Shown one piece after another: positions 3,001 to 63,000 of a stretch of 64,000 nt of DNA. Origin of the DNA: Octopus vulgaris. Taxonomy: Eukaryota. The position numbers are program-made. Location of the stretch: NCBI GenBank assembly GCA_951406725.2, contig OX597840.1:26102001-26166000 (forward strand). The letters are read 5' to 3'. Within the stretch, counting starts at the first letter, position 1. Every line of letters starts with the position of its first letter.

Positions 3001-6000
3001 CTTGAAGAGATGTCGGAAGAATTAGGAAAATCATCATATGACTGTGACATCTGCAAAGAGTCATTCTTAGAAGAAAGTAAATTCAATCAACACAAACAAA
3101 TCCATACAGGGGAACAACAATATCCCTGTGATATCTGTGGTAAATCATTCCATCATGGCAGGAACTTAACAAAACACAAGCATATTCATACAGGGAAGAA
3201 ACCATTTACCTGTGATATCTGTGGTAAATCATTCTCTCAAAACTCTAACTTAACTACTCACAAACGTATTCATACAGGGGAGAAACCATATCACTGTGAT
3301 ATCTGTGGTAAATCATTCTCTCGTTATAATTTCTTAGCTATTCACAAACGTATTCATACAGGGAAGAAACCATTTACCTGTGATATCTGTGGTAAATCAT
3401 TCTCTCAAAGCGGTAACTTAACGAAACATAAGCGTATTCATACAGAGATGTCGGTAGAATTAAGAGAATCATCATATGACTGTGACATCTGCAAAGAGTC
3501 ATTCTTAGAAGAAAGTAAATTCAATCAACACAAACAAATTCATACAGAGAAAGCGCGATATCACTGTAGTATCTGTGGTAAATCCTTCTCTGATGGACGT
3601 AACTTAACGCAGCACCAGCGTATTCATACAGGTGAGAAACCATATCACTGTGATATCTGTGGTAAATCATTCTCTTACAAGAATAGCTTAACTAGACACA
3701 AACGTATTCATTCAGGGGAACAACCATATCACTGTGATATCTGTGGTAAATCATTCTATCAGGGCAGGAACTTAACTCAACACAAGCGTATTCATACAGG
3801 GGAGAAACCATATCACTGTGATATCTGTGGTAAATCATTCTCTCGTTATGATAGCTTAGCTATTCACATACGTATTCATACAGGTGAGAAACCATACCAC
3901 TGTGATATCTGTGGTAAATCATTCTATCAAGAAGGTAACTTAACTCAACACAAACGGGTTCATACAGGGGAGAAACCATATCAATGTGATATCTGTGGTA
4001 AATCCTTTTCTGTTAGCAGTAGCTTAACTACTCACAAGCGTATTCATACAGGTGAGAAACCATATCACTGTGATACCTGTGGTAAATCATTCTCTGATGG
4101 CAGTACCCTAATTAAACACAAACGTGCTCATACAGGCGAGAAGCCATATTCCTGTGATATCTGTTGTAAATCATTCTCAGAAAGCAGCACCTTAACTACG
4201 CACAAGCGTATTCATGCAGGGGAAAAACCATATTCCTGTGATATCTGTGGTAAATCATTCGATCAAAGCGGTAACTTAACTCGACACAAACGGGTTCATA
4301 CAGGGTAGAAACCATACCCCTGTGATATCTGTGGTAAGACCTTCTCTGGAAACAGTCACTTAACTATACACAAATGCATTCACACTCAAGAAAAATAAAT
4401 TCACAGTGTAATCTGTGGCAAATCATTTGCACAAAATCATTTCTGATTTAAACAGAAGTCTTTCCTTATGAAGTGGGTCCATAACACAGTGATATTTGTT
4501 GTATAACATTTCCTCAGAAGGACAAAGGACGTATCTTATAAAGACATCCACAGAATCATCATCATCATCATCGTTTAGCGTCCGTTTTCCATGCTAGCAT
4601 GGGTTGGACGGGTCAACTGGGGTCTGTGAAGCTGGAAGGCTTCGTCAGGCCCAGTCAGATCTGGCAGTGTTTCTACGGCTGGATGCCCTTCCTAACGCCA
4701 ACCACTCCGCGAGTGTAGTGGGTGTTTTTTACGTGCCACGAACGGATGGTGCTTTTACGTGCCACCGACACGGGGCCAGACAGAGCTGGCAACCGGCCGC
4801 GAACGGATAGTGCTTTTACGTGCCACCGACACGGTTGCCACACAGAGCTGGCAAACGGCCACGAGCGGACGGTGCTTTTACGTGTCACCGGCACGGGGTC
4901 CAGCCAAGGCTGGCAACAGACACGGACGGATGGTGCTTTTACGTGCCACCGACACGGAGCCAGACAGAGCTGGCAAACGGCCACGAGCGGACGGTGCTTT
5001 TACGTGTCACCGGCACGGGGGCCAGCCGAGGCTGGCAACGGACGCGAACAGATGGTGCTTTTACGTGCCACCGACACGGTTGCCAGACAGAGCTGGCAAA
5101 CGGCCAATAGAAACTATATGAATATGACATCTATAGTAAATCTTTGACATGAAATTATCCATTATTGAATCAAAAGAACATTGACAGAGGAAGGAAAACA
5201 TATGACTGTGATGTTAAACCTGAATCATTCTTTCGAAATGGTGAATTAATTATACACAGTCCTGTTAATATGAAGAATATGCCATACCCTAAGATATCTG
5301 ATAATAATCAATTATAACATAAATTAATTCTAACAGAAGAGGAACCATATCACTACGATGATGATGATCCTCATCATTTAACATTCACTTTTACATTCTT
5401 CTATGGATCGGATTGAATTCATTGATACCTTCCCTGTTTCCAAGCAAGGAAATATTTTCCCTGGTGAGACATATTTTACACAGAGGACTGGAAATGAACA
5501 ACTGCACAAGTATGACAGTCATGATGGCCATTTACAAACACCACATAATATCTGGACAAGGGTTCACACACACACACACACTTATGTATGTCTGAAGATT
5601 TTCTTATATGAAATATCTTATATGTTCTCTACACATCTAAATGTTTGTAATTCCTATTAGGAAATGAAACACATGTAATGCTGAATAAATAATATCAAAC
5701 TTTTCTCCACTGTCCTTGTGTGTTTTGTAATTACTCTGTAAAAAATATCATCCAGACTGCCCACAAAAATAATATATATGTATACCGTAAATCCTTGAGT
5801 ATAATCCGCATTTTTTTCCCAATATTTATCGGTCAAAATCCCTAGTGCGTACTACATACGAGGTTGAAATTGAAAAATATTTTCTAAGCAATGTCCGAGT
5901 CTCTATTTTGCTGTCAGGCAAAGTTTATTCAGACGTAACATTTATTAAAATAAAAGTATTCAGAACACAGAATAACATGTAACAAAATCAATTTGCAAAC

Positions 6001-60000: not shown

Positions 60001-63000
60001 ATCTCCATTGTTTAAAAACTATCGCCTTGTGAAATTTAGTTTACTCTAATCAGTCACCAATAATTTAATTTTCCATGCTTGAAGCATTATAAACATTTTT
60101 ATGTCCATTAAAATATATAGACATTATAATAATAATAATAATCAAAAGTCACTGAGAATGGTTTTAAGTGTGGTTTCACATTTTTATAATTAGGAAATAC
60201 AAAACCGAATTAAGAGGAAACATTATTTTAATTAAGTCATTATGTCGTTTAAAGAAAGAACATAATAAATCCCTGCTATTTCTAGCATGCAAAGTGACTG
60301 CATACAGCATGGGTTACCTTTGAGTTAGTTCACTCTTTTCAACAAACTCCCCTCCACAAACACACTCTAGACCGATTTTGGCCCTTCTTTTCTCCAGACT
60401 GATTCTGGCACTCAAAAAACAGCGGAGAAACCCTTTCGGTTAAGAAAAACAATTTTACCTTTTCAGAGGAGAAAGTGTTTGATATAAAGGCGATTTAGCT
60501 TCACCAACTGAAAGAGTGCAAATGAAAGGTAGTTTGGAATCTGCTACAGTGGCACCAGCTTAATGCAACACGAACGTATTAATTTAGAGGAGAAACCAGA
60601 TCACTGTAATATCTGTGGCAAGTAATTCTATCAAAGAGGTAACTTCACTACTCACACAAGAGTTCATGGAGGGAAGAAGCCATATCACTGTGACATCAGT
60701 GATGAATCATTCTCTGTTAGTATTTGCCAAACTAGACCCAAGCATACTCAGACACTGGAGAAAACCCCCTTCAGATGAAAACATTAGATATCTAGTGTCA
60801 TTGACATGTATATTGGTATGTGTGTGTGTCTAGGACAGACTTAATGTCCAGGAGATGTTATTATAATACATGTGTCTACTCCCTGCTATAAACTTCTTGA
60901 AAATAGAGAGATGGGATAAGTTTAGTAGTTCAGATAAAGGATTGCTTCTATAATTTATGAAAACAGAAATGTCATAAATTTGCACTTTTGAATATCTGCC
61001 TTTTAAACATACTTGATGTCTTATATTATTTTTTCTATTCTTTCAGAAAATCACATGAAATTGGCTAAAAAGTATTTTTTACTTTTAAAGAATCATCAAT
61101 GTTTCATGTTTTAAAGACTCTGCAAAGATATTCTACAAACGTATAATCCTGCTCCTATAAAACATTGCCGAGTTACAGTAAAATATTTCCTCTGAGAGAG
61201 AAAGCATTTCTTTACTTCTGTGTCTGAAATGTGCAGAAGATAATTTTCTCTTTTAAATATACTTTGATAGATTTCCAAAGAGTATTTGCAACATTTTTAA
61301 ATATTGGCATTGATCACATTTAGAAGAAATATAAGAGAAGTGATATTTGTTTGGAATAAACTATAAAAACAAAAAGAAGAAAAATATCCATAAATTTTGG
61401 TGAGAGGAGAATTAGTATTGAAAAGTTGTTGATCTGTACAACTTGAAAGATCGATTTTATTTTTCTTGAAGAGATGTCGGAAGAATTAAGAAAATCATCA
61501 TATGACTGTGACATCTGCAAAGAGTCATTCTTAGAAGAAAGTAAATTCAATCAACACAAACAAATTCATACAGGGGAACAACCATATCACTGTGATATCT
61601 GTGGTAAATCATTCTCTGATGGCAGTAGCTTAACCAAACACATAAACGTATTCATACAGGGGAAGAAACCATATCACTGTAGATATCTGTGGTAAATCAT
61701 TCTCACATGCACAGTCAGCTTAGCTATTCACAAACGTATTCATACAGGGGAGAAACCATATCACTGTGATATCTGTGGTAAATCATTCTCTGATGGCAGT
61801 AGCTTAACCAAACACAAGCGTATTCATACAGGGTACAAACCATATCACTGTGATATCTGTGGTAAATCATTTTCTCCAATAGCAGTAACCTTAATCGACA
61901 CAAACGTATTCATACAGGGGAGAAACCATATCACTGTGATATCTGTGGTAAATCATTCTCTTGATGGCAGTAGCTTAACCATTCACAAGCGTATTCATAC
62001 AGGGGAGAAACCATATACTGTAGCATCTGTGGTACATCATTCTCACATCTCAGTCAGCTTAACTACATACAAGCGTATTCATACAGGGGAGAAACCATAT
62101 CACTGTGATATCTGTGGTAAATCATTCTCTCATGCTCAGTAGCTTAACCAAACACAAGCGTATTCATACAGGAGAGAAACCATATCAGCTGTAGCATCTG
62201 CGGTACATCATTCTCACATCACAGTCACTTAGCTATTCACATACACGTACTCATACAGGGGAGAAACCATATCACTGTGATATCTGTGGTAAATCATGCT
62301 CGTATTCATACAGGGGAGAAACCAGTAGCTTAGCATCTGTGGTACATCATTCTCATCAAACGTATTCATACAGGAGAGAAACCATATCACTGTAATATCT
62401 GTGGTAAATCATCACGTTTCACTCACAAGTATAGCAGTCACTGATAACTCAACATACACGTAACTTAACTCACACACGGGGAGAAACCATATCATTGTGA
62501 TATCTGTGGTAAATCATTCTCTGTTAGCAGCAGCTTAACTAAACACAAGCATATTCATACAGGTGAGGAACCATATCGCTGTGATATCTGCGGTAAATCA
62601 TTCTCATAAAATCATCACTTAATTAAACACAAGTGCATTCGCTATGCAAAGTTGATCCATAACACAGTGACATTTGTTGTATGACATTCCGTCAGAAGGT
62701 GAAGTTTGTATCTCATAAAGAACTCTACACATGATAGAAACTATATGAATGTGATATCTATGGTAAATCTTTCATTTGAAATTATCCATTATTGAATCAA
62801 AAGAGCATTGACAGAGGAAGGAAAACATATCACTGTGATAGCAGTGCTGAATCATTCTTTGAAAATGGTGAATTGTTTGTACACAGTCATATTAATATGA
62901 AAGATAAAACCATACCCTAAGACATTTGTGCTAAGTCAATCTATGAAAATGATCAATTATTAAAACATAACTGCATTCATACAGAAGAGGAACCATATCA

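What the first reader, a model, noticed from the sequence alone, without database searches (positions are those of the whole stretch)
3010..62662. Combinatorial zinc-finger genes: two 5' modules x two 3' modules, consistent with crossover or inversion inside inverted finger arrays
Seen: 5' ends are alpha (MS[E/K]EL, G1/G4/G5/G8) or beta (MYKMS, G2/G3/G6/G7). 3' ends plus UTR are A (HTG-TAG, G1/G4/G7) or B (QKHH..EVD, G2/G3/G5/G6/G8). All four combinations exist. G7 is beta up to about 47620 and then takes the last three fingers and UTR of G4. G5 is alpha up to about 33170 and then takes beta/B fingers (VSSH, VSSS, QKHH). The same ~6-kb cassette, with tail A at one end and tail B at the other, sits three times between convergent arrays: A-B at 4.3-11.2 kb, and B-A at 20.9-26.9 and 41.2-47.4 kb. 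Inference: the near-invariant 84-bp finger scaffold acts as a multi-register inverted recombination substrate. A crossover would flip the cassette, swap C-terminal fingers and change finger number, like a shufflon without a dedicated recombinase. Whether this is only historical, polymorphic or somatic cannot be told from one sequence.
Basis: partly seen in the sequence, partly recalled or inferred. Interest (0 to 1): 0.85.

Follow-up and report, generated by a model that had tools for sequence, protein, structure and literature searches.

The report
Mosaic zinc-finger genes in octopod cluster
This is a cluster of eight duplicated zinc-finger genes, most likely from an octopus-like cephalopod, in which some genes are true patchworks of their neighbours, but ordinary duplication and repeat-to-repeat exchange explain it without a switchable, shufflon-like inversion system.

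Summary
There are eight C2H2 arrays of 84-bp units, two head types, two tail types, all four combinations, and three copies of a ~6-kb cassette.

Ancestry does switch inside genes. The 5' tree groups G7 with the beta genes (99/97). The 3' tree groups it with G1/G4 (100/100). AU tests reject the opposite groupings. Junctions lie in register inside single fingers: G7.22, G5.11 and G1.15|16.

- The cassettes were copied together with the beta gene and its upstream flank, as whole blocks, one of them inverted. This explains A-B versus B-A without any flip.
- No cassette is flanked by a reciprocal alpha/B plus beta/A pair.
- "Alpha" is the ancestral state, not a clade, so the four-combination pattern alone requires recombination only for G7; finger and flank data add junctions in G5 and G1.
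- A same-strand unequal crossover fits G7 as well as an inverted exchange does.
- Copies differ by 2-7%, and G6 and G8 are pseudogenes.
- No recombinase domain was found.

Closest relatives are octopod proteins. Verdict: segmental-duplication and NAHR evolution, a known kind. Only cassette 3, with 5-kb inverted arms at 96-98% identity, is a credible substrate for present-day inversion.

The parts
3010..4308 (+). G1: alpha1 head, 15 coding fingers, TAG stop. Contains a second, internal in-frame alpha head (unit G1.06, 3460-3543).
   Evidence: ORF. Units. Only zf-C2H2-type Pfam families.
4300..4383 (+). G1.16: the post-TAG finger. The junction with the cassette block lies at the G1.15|G1.16 boundary.
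   Evidence: G1.16 differs from G4.15 at 0 of 84 positions. G1.15 differs from G4.14 at 19 of 84.
4384..11238 (-). Cassette 1 (A end at 4384, B end at 11238), inverted relative to cassettes 2 and 3. Carries a private insert at about 4557-5106 that includes the 61/122-bp tandem repeat at 4735-5106.
   Evidence: 7241-11238 matches 24892-20922 at 95.6% and 45169-41184 at 95.2%. 4384-4556 matches 26785-26613 at 97.1%. Tandem repeat.
11284..12552 (-). G2: beta head, 14 intact fingers, B terminal finger broken by small deletions.
12496..13866 (-). Upstream flank of G2, copied together with cassette 1 and G2 (block d).
   Evidence: 12496-13283 matches 39337-38541 at 96.1%. 13280-13866 matches 38428-37840 at 97.3%.
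14499..19157 (+). X plus U: upstream flank of G3 (block a).
   Evidence: matches 54055-49392 (inverted) at 97.7% over 4,673 aligned positions.
19101..20939 (+). G3: beta head, 21 fingers, intact B tail (QKHH..EVDA).
20922..26785 (+). Cassette 2 (B end to A end).
   Evidence: 20922-25453 matches 41184-45739 at 96.9%. 25470-26785 matches 45974-47291 at 98.1%.
26861..28057 (-). G4: alpha4 head, 14 coding fingers, A tail. The post-stop finger is at 26786-26869.
31570..32937 (-). 3' flank of G5. It is the B-end 1.37 kb of a cassette.
   Evidence: 95.5-96.0% identical to the B ends of cassettes 1-3, but 94.3% to the G8 flank.
32920..34041 (-). G5: alpha5 head, 10 own-type fingers, then 3 beta/B fingers (G5.11-13).
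   Evidence: G5.11 has 2 mismatches to G2.13 (and to G3.16), G5.12 has 0 to G2.14, and G5.13 has 2 to G3.21. Searches agree.
33153..33189 (-). G5 junction inside unit G5.11.
   Evidence: nt 26-84 of G5.11 plus all of G5.12 are identical to G2.13-14. The only 2 differences lie in nt 1-25.
35911..39337 (+). X' plus U: upstream flank of G6 (block b). It is the left arm of the inverted repeat around cassette 3.
   Evidence: 35911-38037 matches 53402-51252 at 97.7%. 38034-39337 matches 50695-49392 at 97.5%.
39281..41183 (+). G6: beta head, 22 units, pseudogene (frameshifts in units 02, 09 and 22).
41184..47291 (+). Cassette 3 (B end to A end). It is flanked by two beta arrays in inverted orientation.
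   Evidence: Exact inverted runs reach 295 nt in the arrays and 502 nt in the arms.
47367..49448 (-). G7: beta head, 21 beta fingers, then 3 coding A fingers. The post-stop finger is at 47292-47375.
   Evidence: G7.01-21 have 0-5 mismatches to beta fingers. G7.22-25 have 6, 4, 1 and 2 mismatches to G4.12-15. Searches agree.
47592..47600 (-). G7 crossover interval inside unit G7.22.
   Evidence: nt 1-36 are identical to the B terminal finger G3.21. From nt 28 on the unit follows G4.12, with 1 mismatch (nt 81).
49392..54055 (-). U plus X'': upstream flank of G7 (block c, inverted).
   Evidence: 97.7% identical to 14499-19157.
54055..59328 (+). LINE insertion private to block c. It is not part of the mechanism and serves as a dating marker.
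   Evidence: EEP endonuclease, RVT_1 and zf-RVT. 15-bp target-site duplication and an empty site in block a.
59584..61485 (+). Upstream flank of G8, inverted copy of the G5 upstream flank.
   Evidence: 95.3% identity; 3.2% mismatch.
61474..62642 (+). G8: alpha5 head, B-type tail, heavily frameshifted pseudogene.
   Evidence: 10.4% mismatch and 18 gap events against the G5 array.
62643..64000 (+). 3' flank of G8 (cassette B end), cut by the window end.
   Evidence: 94.3% to the G5 flank and 93.0-93.3% to the cassette B ends.

Best explanation
The window holds a lineage-specific cluster of C2H2 poly-zinc-finger genes, most likely from an octopod cephalopod. It evolves by birth-and-death through two ordinary processes.

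(1) Multi-kilobase blocks were duplicated in direct and inverted orientation. The repeating block is [alpha5/B gene <-][X][-> beta/B gene][~6-kb cassette][<- A-tailed gene]. Four partial copies are visible:
- block d, 4300-13866, inverted;
- block a, 13866-28662;
- block b, 31564-47627;
- block c, 47628-64000, inverted.

(2) The 84-bp finger repeats exchange homologously and in register, by unequal crossover, NAHR or gene conversion, within and between arrays. This changes finger number and sometimes joins the proximal fingers of one paralogue to the distal fingers, stop codon and 3' flank of another.

Shown:
- the block structure;
- the switch of ancestry in G7 (21 beta fingers, then 3 coding A fingers plus the post-stop finger), in G5 (10 own fingers, then 3 beta/B fingers plus 1.37 kb of flank) and at the G1 tail;
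- the in-register position of all three joints;
- independent internal duplications in every array.

Inferred:
- these were rare germline events fixed over evolutionary time;
- the three cassette copies and their two orientations come from block duplication, not from flipping;
- the exact event type for each joint (fusion by deletion or duplication, inversion, inverted duplication or conversion) cannot be recovered from one haplotype.
For: Identity of the locus:
- 141 finger units were found in eight arrays.
- The six intact ORFs hit only zf-C2H2-type Pfam families.
- A search with the head region gave 6 Octopus proteins among 9 hits, including the top 3.
- The best named hit to the LINE reverse transcriptase is from Argonauta hians, at 57% identity.

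Block duplication (arrays masked):
- Cassettes are 95.2-98.1% identical over their full length.
- Each cassette copy is attached on its B side to a beta/B gene with the same upstream U and X sequence at 96-98%.
- 15152-27121 matches 35911-47627 in direct orientation.
- 13866-20919 matches 59973-47630 in inverted orientation, interrupted only by a LINE with a 15-bp target-site duplication.

Mosaicism:
- The 5' tree has a beta clade (G2, G3, G6, G7) at 99/97 and G5+G8 at 93/94.
- The 3' tree has an A clade (G1, G4, G7) at 100/100 and a B clade at 100/100, with G8 outside (G2, G3, G5, G6) at 100/99.
- AU tests give p = 5e-62, 2e-4, 0.0098, 2e-10 and 0.011.
- Per-finger mismatch counts and the finger tree agree.

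In-register joints are shown.

Minisatellite-like behaviour:
- Units such as G2.07, G2.09, G3.08, G3.10, G3.12, G6.07, G7.07 and G7.09 are identical.
- Each gene has private tandem duplicates, for example G5.06-09, G6.14-15 and G7.19/21.
- The G5 and G8 arrays differ by 10.4% with 18 gap events, while their flanks differ by 3.2-3.8%.

Age: copies differ by 2-7%, and G6 and G8 are decayed.

Precedent:
- Mouse KRAB-ZNF clusters expand by duplicated gene blocks, and one strain carries an inversion attributed to recombination between two clusters (PMC12575710, passages read).
- The abstract of PMC5363842 reports 'drifting and shifting' of finger arrays (passages read).
- Octopod C2H2 clusters and tandem duplications are described in PMC9795677 (passages read).
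Against: - Only one haplotype of one assembly was seen, so the order and type of events are inferred.
- Two of the roughly five visible block boundaries fall inside arrays, which make up about 18% of the window. That is too few to show enrichment.
- Beta fingers are less diverged between genes (often 0-2 of 84) than the flanks (2-5%). Purifying selection could explain this as well as continuing conversion can, and I did not separate the two.
- The AU test for G5 (p = 0.011) used a grouping named after the tree had been seen.
- Species identity rests on protein hits of only 57-62% identity.
- No read-level check of the G7 joint was possible.
Confidence: 0.8

Rival explanations
1. A homologous crossover between finger arrays lying in inverted orientation produced the chimeras. 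For G7 this would be an NAHR inversion, or a homology-guided inverted duplication, with one breakpoint in an alpha4/A array at finger 12 and the other in the terminal finger of a beta/B array.
For: - Blocks b and c meet head-on exactly at the G7.22 joint: 15152-27121 matches 35911-47627 in direct orientation, and 13866-20919 matches 59973-47630 in inverted orientation.
- The joint is in register, with a hybrid unit.
- The order G7 - X inverted - G8 on the + strand is what inverting a [G4' head - S - G5' - X - G3'' head] segment of a 20.6-kb tandem repeat would give.
- An inversion attributed to recombination between two ZNF clusters is reported in a mouse strain (PMC12575710, passage read).
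Against: - The reciprocal product, an alpha4 head with a B terminal finger, is not in the window. It would lie beyond 64 kb.
- None of the three cassettes is flanked by an alpha/B plus beta/A pair.
- A same-strand unequal crossover gives the same G7 (see the next rival).
Confidence: 0.25
2. Lepore-type fusion. G7, and likewise the G5 tail, arose by unequal crossover between two arrays on the same strand. The sequence between them was deleted or duplicated. Block inversions happened separately, with breakpoints elsewhere.
For: - The hybrid units are in register.
- A B-tailed gene lying in tandem upstream of the alpha4/A gene exists in the window: G5 then S then G4, both on the - strand.
- S (28662-31570) contains cassette pieces in cassette order: 31570-32935 matches 9871-11236, and 29294-29703 matches 7081-7471.
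- Same-strand unequal exchange is needed anyway to explain the finger-number differences among the beta arrays (15, 21, 22 and 21+4 units).
Against: - The required intermediate, a - strand beta/B gene to the right of a G4-like gene, is not observed.
- It needs a prior inverted duplication of block c with a breakpoint that is no longer visible.
Confidence: 0.3
3. Active shufflon-like system. The convergent arrays recombine recurrently, in the germline of living populations or somatically, for example in neurons. Each event flips the cassettes and swaps tails, diversifying the ZNF repertoire.
For: - Cassette 3 is a good substrate. It has inverted arms of about 5.3 kb at 96-98% identity, with exact runs up to 502 nt (295 nt inside the arrays), around a 6.1-kb spacer.
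- The G2 x G3 head-to-head arrays share a 529-nt exact run.
Against: - No recombinase, integrase or transposase domain was found in the 29 non-array ORFs scanned. These were 29 of the 53 ORFs of at least 100 aa listed.
- Cassettes 1 and 2 are flanked by arrays sharing only 55 and 51 nt exact runs.
- The arms of unit 3 are no more alike (97.5-97.7%) than either is to the G3 copy (96.7-98.2%). There is thus no sign of frequent arm-to-arm exchange.
- G6, one of the two partners, is a pseudogene.
- Copies differ by 2-7%.
Confidence: 0.04
4. Assembly artefact. The G7 (and perhaps G5) joint is a mis-join of two real loci inside near-identical repeats.
For: - The region is made of 84-bp repeats and 95-98% identical multi-kilobase duplicates. 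Such sequence is hard to assemble.
- G8 carries many 1-2-bp indels.
Against: - The alpha5/B combination occurs twice in diverged copies, G5 and G8.
- At G7.22 the two parental types share only 9 identical nt around the switch, too short to seed a mis-join.
- G7's A fingers and cassette 3 carry their own substitutions relative to G4 and cassette 2. Outside the hybrid linker this is 8 of 309 nt, in line with the 1.9-3.1% divergence of the cassettes.
- The LINE with a clean 15-bp target-site duplication shows base-level integrity nearby.
Confidence: 0.06

Closest known systems
Mammalian KRAB-zinc-finger (KZFP) gene clusters
   Same: - Tandem clusters of poly-C2H2 genes that grow by duplication of multi-gene blocks.
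- Recombination scars, occasional inversions between clusters, and gain, loss and 'shifting' of fingers in arrays (PMC12575710 passages; PMC5363842 abstract and passages).
   Different: - No KRAB, SCAN or BTB domain in the ORFs here. The coding region is essentially fingers only, with a degenerate first finger as the head.
- The organism is a mollusc.
- The mouse paper attributes NAHR mainly to ERVs and LINEs. Here two joints lie inside the finger arrays themselves.
Cephalopod (octopod) C2H2 ZNF expansions
   Same: - Large lineage-specific C2H2 families arranged in chromosomal clusters, with tandem duplication (PMC9795677 passages; PMC12513265 outline and passages).
- The head region's best hits are Octopus vulgaris and O. 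sinensis proteins.
   Different: - Those papers treat gene counts, phylogeny and expression.
- In PMC12513265 the words recombination, inversion, gene conversion and unequal occur 0 times.
- The founding genome paper (Albertin et al. 2015) is not held in the library. What I know of it is recalled.
PRDM9 zinc-finger minisatellite (recalled, not looked up)
   Same: An 84-bp finger repeat behaving as a minisatellite. In-register unequal exchange and conversion create new finger orders and numbers.
   Different: - PRDM9 is a single locus with allelic diversity. Here the exchange is between paralogous genes.
- No PR/SET domain is present.
Lepore-type fusion genes from unequal crossover between tandem paralogues (globins, opsins; recalled)
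   Same: A hybrid gene with the 5' part of one paralogue and the 3' part plus flank of another. The joint is in register in shared sequence.
   Different: The parental tandem arrangement for G7 is not observed, and the joined blocks are in opposite orientation in the present assembly.
Bacterial shufflons (R64-type; recalled)
   Same: Alternative C-terminal segments of a protein could in principle be exchanged by inverting DNA between inverted repeats.
   Different: - Shufflons use a dedicated site-specific recombinase and short specific sites, and they switch at high frequency within a clone.
- Here no recombinase domain was found.
- The repeats are generic coding scaffold.
- The copies are millions of years apart by divergence, and each gene has its own head.

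Membership tests
Lineage-specific tandem C2H2 poly-zinc-finger gene cluster | Arrays of C2H2 fingers with TGEKPY-type linkers at a 28-aa / 84-bp period | tested here: met
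   126 regex-defined fingers seeded the profile, 141 HMM-defined units lie in eight arrays, TRF finds period 84, and Pfam finds zf-C2H2 and zf-H2C2_2.
Lineage-specific tandem C2H2 poly-zinc-finger gene cluster | Several close paralogues side by side that share flanks | tested here: met
   Eight arrays lie in 64 kb. The ~720-bp upstream region is 90.6-98% identical among all eight.
Lineage-specific tandem C2H2 poly-zinc-finger gene cluster | Whole array in one uninterrupted reading frame | tested here: met
   6 of 8 are intact ORFs. G6 and G8 are frameshifted.
Octopod C2H2 expansion | Closest relatives are octopod ZNF proteins | tested here: inconclusive
   The head-region search gave 6 Octopus proteins among 9 hits, but at about 60% identity. 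The whole-protein search was swamped by generic ZNFs. No eukaryotic genome collection was available to fetch the orthologous locus.
KRAB-ZNF family | N-terminal KRAB domain | tested here: not met
   No KRAB, SCAN or BTB among the Pfam hits shown for the six ORFs (the best 25 of 26-44 families per ORF). Upstream exons were not modelled.
Shufflon / programmed invertible-segment system | Dedicated site-specific recombinase encoded at the locus | tested here: not met
   29 non-array ORFs were scanned, out of the 53 ORFs of at least 100 aa listed. Only the LINE EEP endonuclease and RVT_1/zf-RVT passed cut-offs.
Shufflon / programmed invertible-segment system | Short specific crossover sites in inverted orientation | tested here: not met
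   The shared sequence is the generic finger scaffold. The three joints are at three different units and positions.
Shufflon / programmed invertible-segment system | Both orientations co-exist in one population or individual | not testable with these tools
   Only one assembled sequence is available.
NAHR inversion between inverted duplicates | Long, highly identical inverted repeats flanking the segment | tested here: met
   Met for cassette 3 only: 35911-41183 against 53402-47292, 96-98% in the flanks, with exact runs up to 502 nt. Cassettes 1 and 2 have exact runs of only 55 and 51 nt.
NAHR inversion between inverted duplicates | Reciprocal hybrid junctions at both ends of the inverted segment | tested here: not met
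   No alpha/B plus beta/A pair flanks any cassette. The reciprocal of G7 is not in the window.
Lepore-type unequal-crossover fusion | In-register hybrid unit joining two paralogues | tested here: met
   G7.22 is G3.21-type over nt 1-36 and G4.12-type from nt 28 on. G5.11 is a similar hybrid.
Lepore-type unequal-crossover fusion | Parental genes in tandem on one strand | tested here: inconclusive
   G5 (B tail) lies in tandem upstream of G4 (A tail). A beta gene in that position is not observed.

The most novel reading that the evidence does not exclude
Cassette 3, and perhaps the 6.6-kb head-to-head segment between G2 and G3, may be a recurrently inverting germline polymorphism in this cephalopod. 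The segment sits between 5-kb inverted arms at 96-98% identity that include two beta finger arrays sharing exact runs up to 295 nt. Crossovers inside the arrays would swap the A and B tails and change the finger numbers of G6 and G7 in many registers. The locus would then carry a standing pool of alternative ZNF alleles. A weaker, less likely extension is that the same exchange occurs somatically.
Probability: 0.1. Interest if true: 0.6.

Novelty: new member of a known kind. Interest (0 to 1): 0.3.

Why it matters
Cephalopod C2H2 expansions are much cited as one of the genomic hallmarks of coleoids. The papers I could read describe them by gene counts, trees and expression, not by how new finger combinations arise.

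This window gives a base-level example of three things:
- whole blocks of genes being copied in both orientations;
- arrays behaving like minisatellites;
- at least three in-register joints that graft the distal fingers, stop codon and 3' flank of one paralogue onto another.

That is the same toolkit described for mammalian KRAB-ZNF clusters, so it argues for convergent dynamics rather than a new mechanism. It also identifies one concrete place, cassette 3, where an inversion polymorphism could be looked for with long reads.

Tried and rejected
- Whole-protein search with G4. The 120 listed hits were generic vertebrate and invertebrate poly-ZNFs at 37-62% identity, which told nothing about origin. 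I replaced it with a search on the 40-residue head.
- Head alignment that included the internal G1 head. It distorted the alignment, so I redid it without that row.
- 1,500-bp upstream alignment. It gave misleadingly low identities because homology common to all eight genes ends about 720 bp upstream. I replaced it with BLAST-defined blocks after masking the arrays.
- First idea that 31.5-41.1 kb and 64-47.6 kb form one simple fold-back palindrome. Rejected: the G7 upstream copy shares two segments with the G3 copy (17310-17854 and 14256-15152) that the G6 copy lacks.
- Treating all four head-tail combinations as proof of several recombinations. Rejected: alpha is the ancestral state and not a clade.
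- Looking for a gene, RNA or recombinase in the cassette. Pfam found nothing in the cassette ORFs scanned, Rfam found 0 families and there are 0 tRNAs.
- Albertin et al. 2015 could not be read because it is not held.
- Structure, complex, atlas and representative-protein searches were not run because no open question depended on them.
- The bacterial/archaeal genome-contig collection is irrelevant to an animal locus and was not used.

Full report
**What the window is**

The 64-kb window has no N and is about 35% G+C. It contains eight arrays of C2H2 zinc fingers built from 84-bp units.

Six arrays are intact ORFs: G1, G2, G3, G4, G5 and G7. These hit only zinc-finger families in Pfam, with no KRAB, SCAN or BTB among the families shown. 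G6 has three frameshifted units. In G8 most units are frameshifted.

The organism is probably an octopod:
- A search restricted to the 40-residue head of G4 returned 9 proteins. Six are from Octopus vulgaris or O. sinensis, including the top three.
- The best named relative of the reverse transcriptase of a LINE in the window is from Argonauta hians, at 57% identity.
- I therefore take the window to be from an octopod or close relative. It is not human.

All protein queries were single uninterrupted ORFs.

**Observation**

- Alpha heads are in G1, G4, G5 and G8. Beta heads are in G2, G3, G6 and G7.
- The A tail is HTG, then TAG, then one more intact in-frame finger. It occurs in G1, G4 and G7.
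- The B terminal finger occurs in G2, G3, G5, G6 and G8. It is an open frame only in G3 and G5.
- The three cassettes are 4384-11238, 20922-26785 and 41184-47291. They are 95.2-98.1% identical along their whole length. The first is inverted relative to the other two.

**Heads and tails are homologous variants, not unrelated modules**

All eight genes share about 720 bp of upstream sequence at 90.6-98% identity. They also share about 700 bp of 3' flank at 77-85% between A and B. The 3' flanks are decayed fingers.

The beta head is a point-mutated alpha head. The ATG is ATA, the second cysteine codon of the first finger is TAC, and the ATC of CDIC has become the new ATG 39 nt downstream.

In a tree of the upstream region, beta is a clade (99/97) and G5+G8 pair (93/94). 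G1 and G4 are separate lineages, so alpha is the ancestral state. In a tree of the 3' flank, A (G1, G4, G7) and B (G2, G3, G5, G6, G8) are each supported at 100/100. G8 lies outside (G2, G3, G5, G6) at 100/99.

**Ancestry switches inside genes**

AU tests:

| Data | Grouping rejected | p |
|---|---|---|
| 3' flank | beta clade | 5e-62 |
| 3' flank | (G5,G8) | 0.011 (grouping named after seeing the tree) |
| 5' region | (G1,G4,G7) | 2e-4 |
| 5' region | (G4,G7) | 0.0098 |
| 5' region | (G2,G3,G5,G6) | 2e-10 |

Finger by finger:
- G7.01-21 differ from their best beta counterparts at 0-5 of 84 positions, and from any G4 finger at 6 or more.
- G7.22-25 differ from G4.12-15 at 6, 4, 1 and 2 positions, and from any beta finger at 10 or more.
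- G5.11 differs from G2.13 (and G3.16) at 2 positions, G5.12 from G2.14 at 0, and G5.13 from G3.21 at 2.
- G5.01-10 are of their own type.

A tree of 127 of the 141 units gives the same nearest neighbours. It uses the 129 units of exactly 84 nt, less two long-branch G8 units.

**The joints**

- G7.22 is identical to the B terminal finger G3.21 over nt 1-36. From nt 28 on it follows G4.12, with one mismatch at nt 81. The switch therefore lies in a 9-nt interval, window 47592-47600.
- G5.11 from nt 26, plus all of G5.12, is identical to G2.13-14. The only two differences lie in nt 1-25.
- G1.16, the post-stop finger, is identical to G4.15. G1.15 differs from G4.14 at 19 of 84 positions. The G1 array is therefore joined to the cassette block right at the stop codon.

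All three joints are in register in the conserved linker and Cys-Cys part of the unit. This is what homologous exchange predicts.

**Block structure (arrays masked)**

Four partial copies of one large unit can be read: [alpha5/B gene <-][X][-> beta/B gene][cassette][<- A-tailed gene].

| Block | Coordinates | Orientation | Content |
|---|---|---|---|
| a | 13866-28662 | direct | remnant of alpha5 upstream, X, G3, cassette 2, G4 |
| b | 31564-47627 | direct | G5, X', G6, cassette 3, the four A fingers of G7 |
| c | 47628-64000 | inverted | 21 beta fingers of G7, X'', G8 |
| d | 4300-13866 | inverted | one A finger, cassette 1, G2, 1.4 kb of its upstream flank |

Blocks a and b are direct repeats with a period of about 20.6 kb (15152-27121 matches 35911-47627). 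Block c is an inverted copy of 13866-20919. It is interrupted only by a 5.3-kb LINE that has a 15-bp target-site duplication, with an empty site in block a.

In every copy the cassette is attached on its B side to a beta/B gene with the same upstream sequence at 96-98%. The A-B versus B-A orientation of the cassette therefore follows from the orientation of the whole block.

**Test of the flip model**

A crossover between the two convergent arrays of one unit inverts the cassette. It must leave an alpha/B gene on one side and a beta/A gene on the other. The observed pairs are alpha1/A + beta/B, beta/B + alpha4/A, and beta/B + beta/A. None is reciprocal.

G7 has a beta head because its 5' half, with 4.7 kb of upstream sequence at 97.7% identity to the G3 flank, belongs to a different, inverted block. 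The b|c joint could have arisen in any of these ways:
- one end of an inversion between head-to-head arrays;
- a homology-guided inverted duplication;
- a Lepore-type fusion between two same-strand arrays after an earlier block inversion.

The window does not contain the reciprocal product that would decide between them. Because alpha is ancestral, alpha/A, alpha/B and beta/B need no recombination. On the four-combination logic only beta/A does. The G5 tail is an additional, more recent replacement. Its 3' flank is 95.5-96.0% identical to the cassette B ends, but only 94.3% to the G8 flank.

**Arrays behave like minisatellites**

- Identical units recur within and between beta genes, for example G2.07 = G2.09 = G3.08 = G3.10 = G3.12 = G6.07 = G7.07 = G7.09.
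- Each gene has private tandem duplicates.
- The G5 and G8 arrays differ by 10.4% with 18 gap events. Their flanks differ by 3.2-3.8% with 5-7 gap events.

**Substrate quality**

| Array pair | Position | Longest exact shared run |
|---|---|---|
| G1 x G2 | flanking cassette 1 | 55 nt |
| G3 x G4 | flanking cassette 2 | 51 nt |
| G6 x G7 | flanking cassette 3 | 295 nt (502 nt with the upstream arms) |
| G2 x G3 | head to head | 529 nt |

Only the last two look like efficient inversion substrates. The arms of unit 3 are no more alike (97.5-97.7%) than either is to the G3 copy (96.7-98.2%). There is therefore no sign of frequent arm-to-arm exchange.

**No dedicated machinery**

I scanned 29 non-array ORFs, out of the 53 ORFs of at least 100 aa listed. 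Only the LINE endonuclease and reverse transcriptase passed Pfam cut-offs. No recombinase, integrase or transposase domain was found. Rfam gave 0 families and ARAGORN 0 tRNAs.

**Literature**

- Octopod C2H2 genes form chromosomal clusters, and tandem duplications of the expanded families are reported. That paper dates the C2H2 expansion to about 41 Ma (PMC9795677, passages read).
- The 2025 survey of cephalopod C2H2 expansions does not use the words recombination, inversion, gene conversion or unequal (PMC12513265, outline and passages).
- Wells et al. 2023 mention octopus ZNFs in relation to transposable elements (PMC10547256, passages).
- Mouse KRAB-ZNF clusters expand by duplicated gene blocks, show NAHR scars, and in one strain carry an inversion attributed to recombination between two clusters (PMC12575710, passages).
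- 'Drifting and shifting' of arrays is reported in PMC5363842 (abstract and passages).
- Searches found no paper in the held library that describes mosaic ZNF genes made by array exchange in a cephalopod. Subscription papers, and the 2015 octopus genome paper (not held), were not searchable. Supplements were not opened.
- PRDM9 minisatellite behaviour, Lepore-type fusions, shufflon biology and cephalopod A-to-I editing are recalled, not looked up.

**Limits**

- Only one haplotype was available.
- No eukaryotic genome collection was on hand, so orthologous loci and the sequence beyond 64 kb stayed unchecked.
- The read-level correctness of the G7 joint is untested.
- Selection versus gene conversion as the cause of the low divergence of beta fingers was not resolved.

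Noticed in passing
54055-59328 (+): A LINE with a 333-aa ORF1-like frame, an EEP endonuclease ORF and an RVT_1 + zf-RVT ORF in different frames. It is 48-52% G+C in a 33-37% background. It is flanked by a 15-bp target-site duplication, with the empty site preserved at about 14499-14513. It inserted after the block duplication. The best named relative is from Argonauta hians at 57% identity.
   Followed up: yes
3442-3543 (+), inside G1: A second alpha head (…[23 protein letters not shown]…) sits in frame in the middle of G1, after 4 ordinary fingers. G1 thus looks like two gene copies fused head to tail without the upstream region. The joint is not at a finger register.
   Followed up: partly
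4300-4383 (+), 26786-26869 (-), 47292-47375 (-): Directly after the TAG stop of every A tail there is one more intact in-frame finger ([19 protein letters not shown][I/K]HKCIH). Decayed fingers follow it. The TAG replaces the usual GAG of the TGEKPY linker. Whether the UAG is read through or edited was not tested. A-to-I recoding in cephalopods is recalled, so this is speculation.
   Followed up: no
34761-34925 (-), 60586-60750 (+): Two relic fingers sharing the same in-frame stop (CNICGK*FYQRGNFTTHTRVH) lie just beyond the 720-bp upstream homology of G5 and G8, on the gene strand. They are remnants of an older ZNF gene or exon.
   Followed up: no
15058-15748, 35911-36491, 52815-53496: The X region upstream of the beta genes contains an 81-86% copy of the ZNF 3' flank plus a weak finger relic. 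This is an older layer of gene remnants inside the present intergenic DNA.
   Followed up: partly
4735-5106 (+): A G+C-rich 61/122-bp tandem repeat (about 6 copies) is present only in cassette 1. It lies inside an insert at about 4557-5106 that cassettes 2 and 3 lack.
   Followed up: no
11239-12495 (-) and 19158-20921 (+): The head-to-head arrays of G2 and G3 share a 529-nt exact run and flank a 6.6-kb segment.
   Followed up: partly
28662-31570: The spacer between G4 and G5 carries cassette pieces in cassette order (31570-32935 matches 9871-11236, and 29294-29703 matches 7081-7471 at 86%). It looks like a truncated, older cassette.
   Followed up: partly
upstream of every head, e.g. 2983-3009: Annotated Octopus relatives begin about 15 residues further upstream (ME[K/R]S.K..EL I.PE…). 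In this cluster the corresponding frame is closed by a stop. The start has therefore moved downstream twice: first to the alpha ATG, then to the beta ATG.
   Followed up: partly
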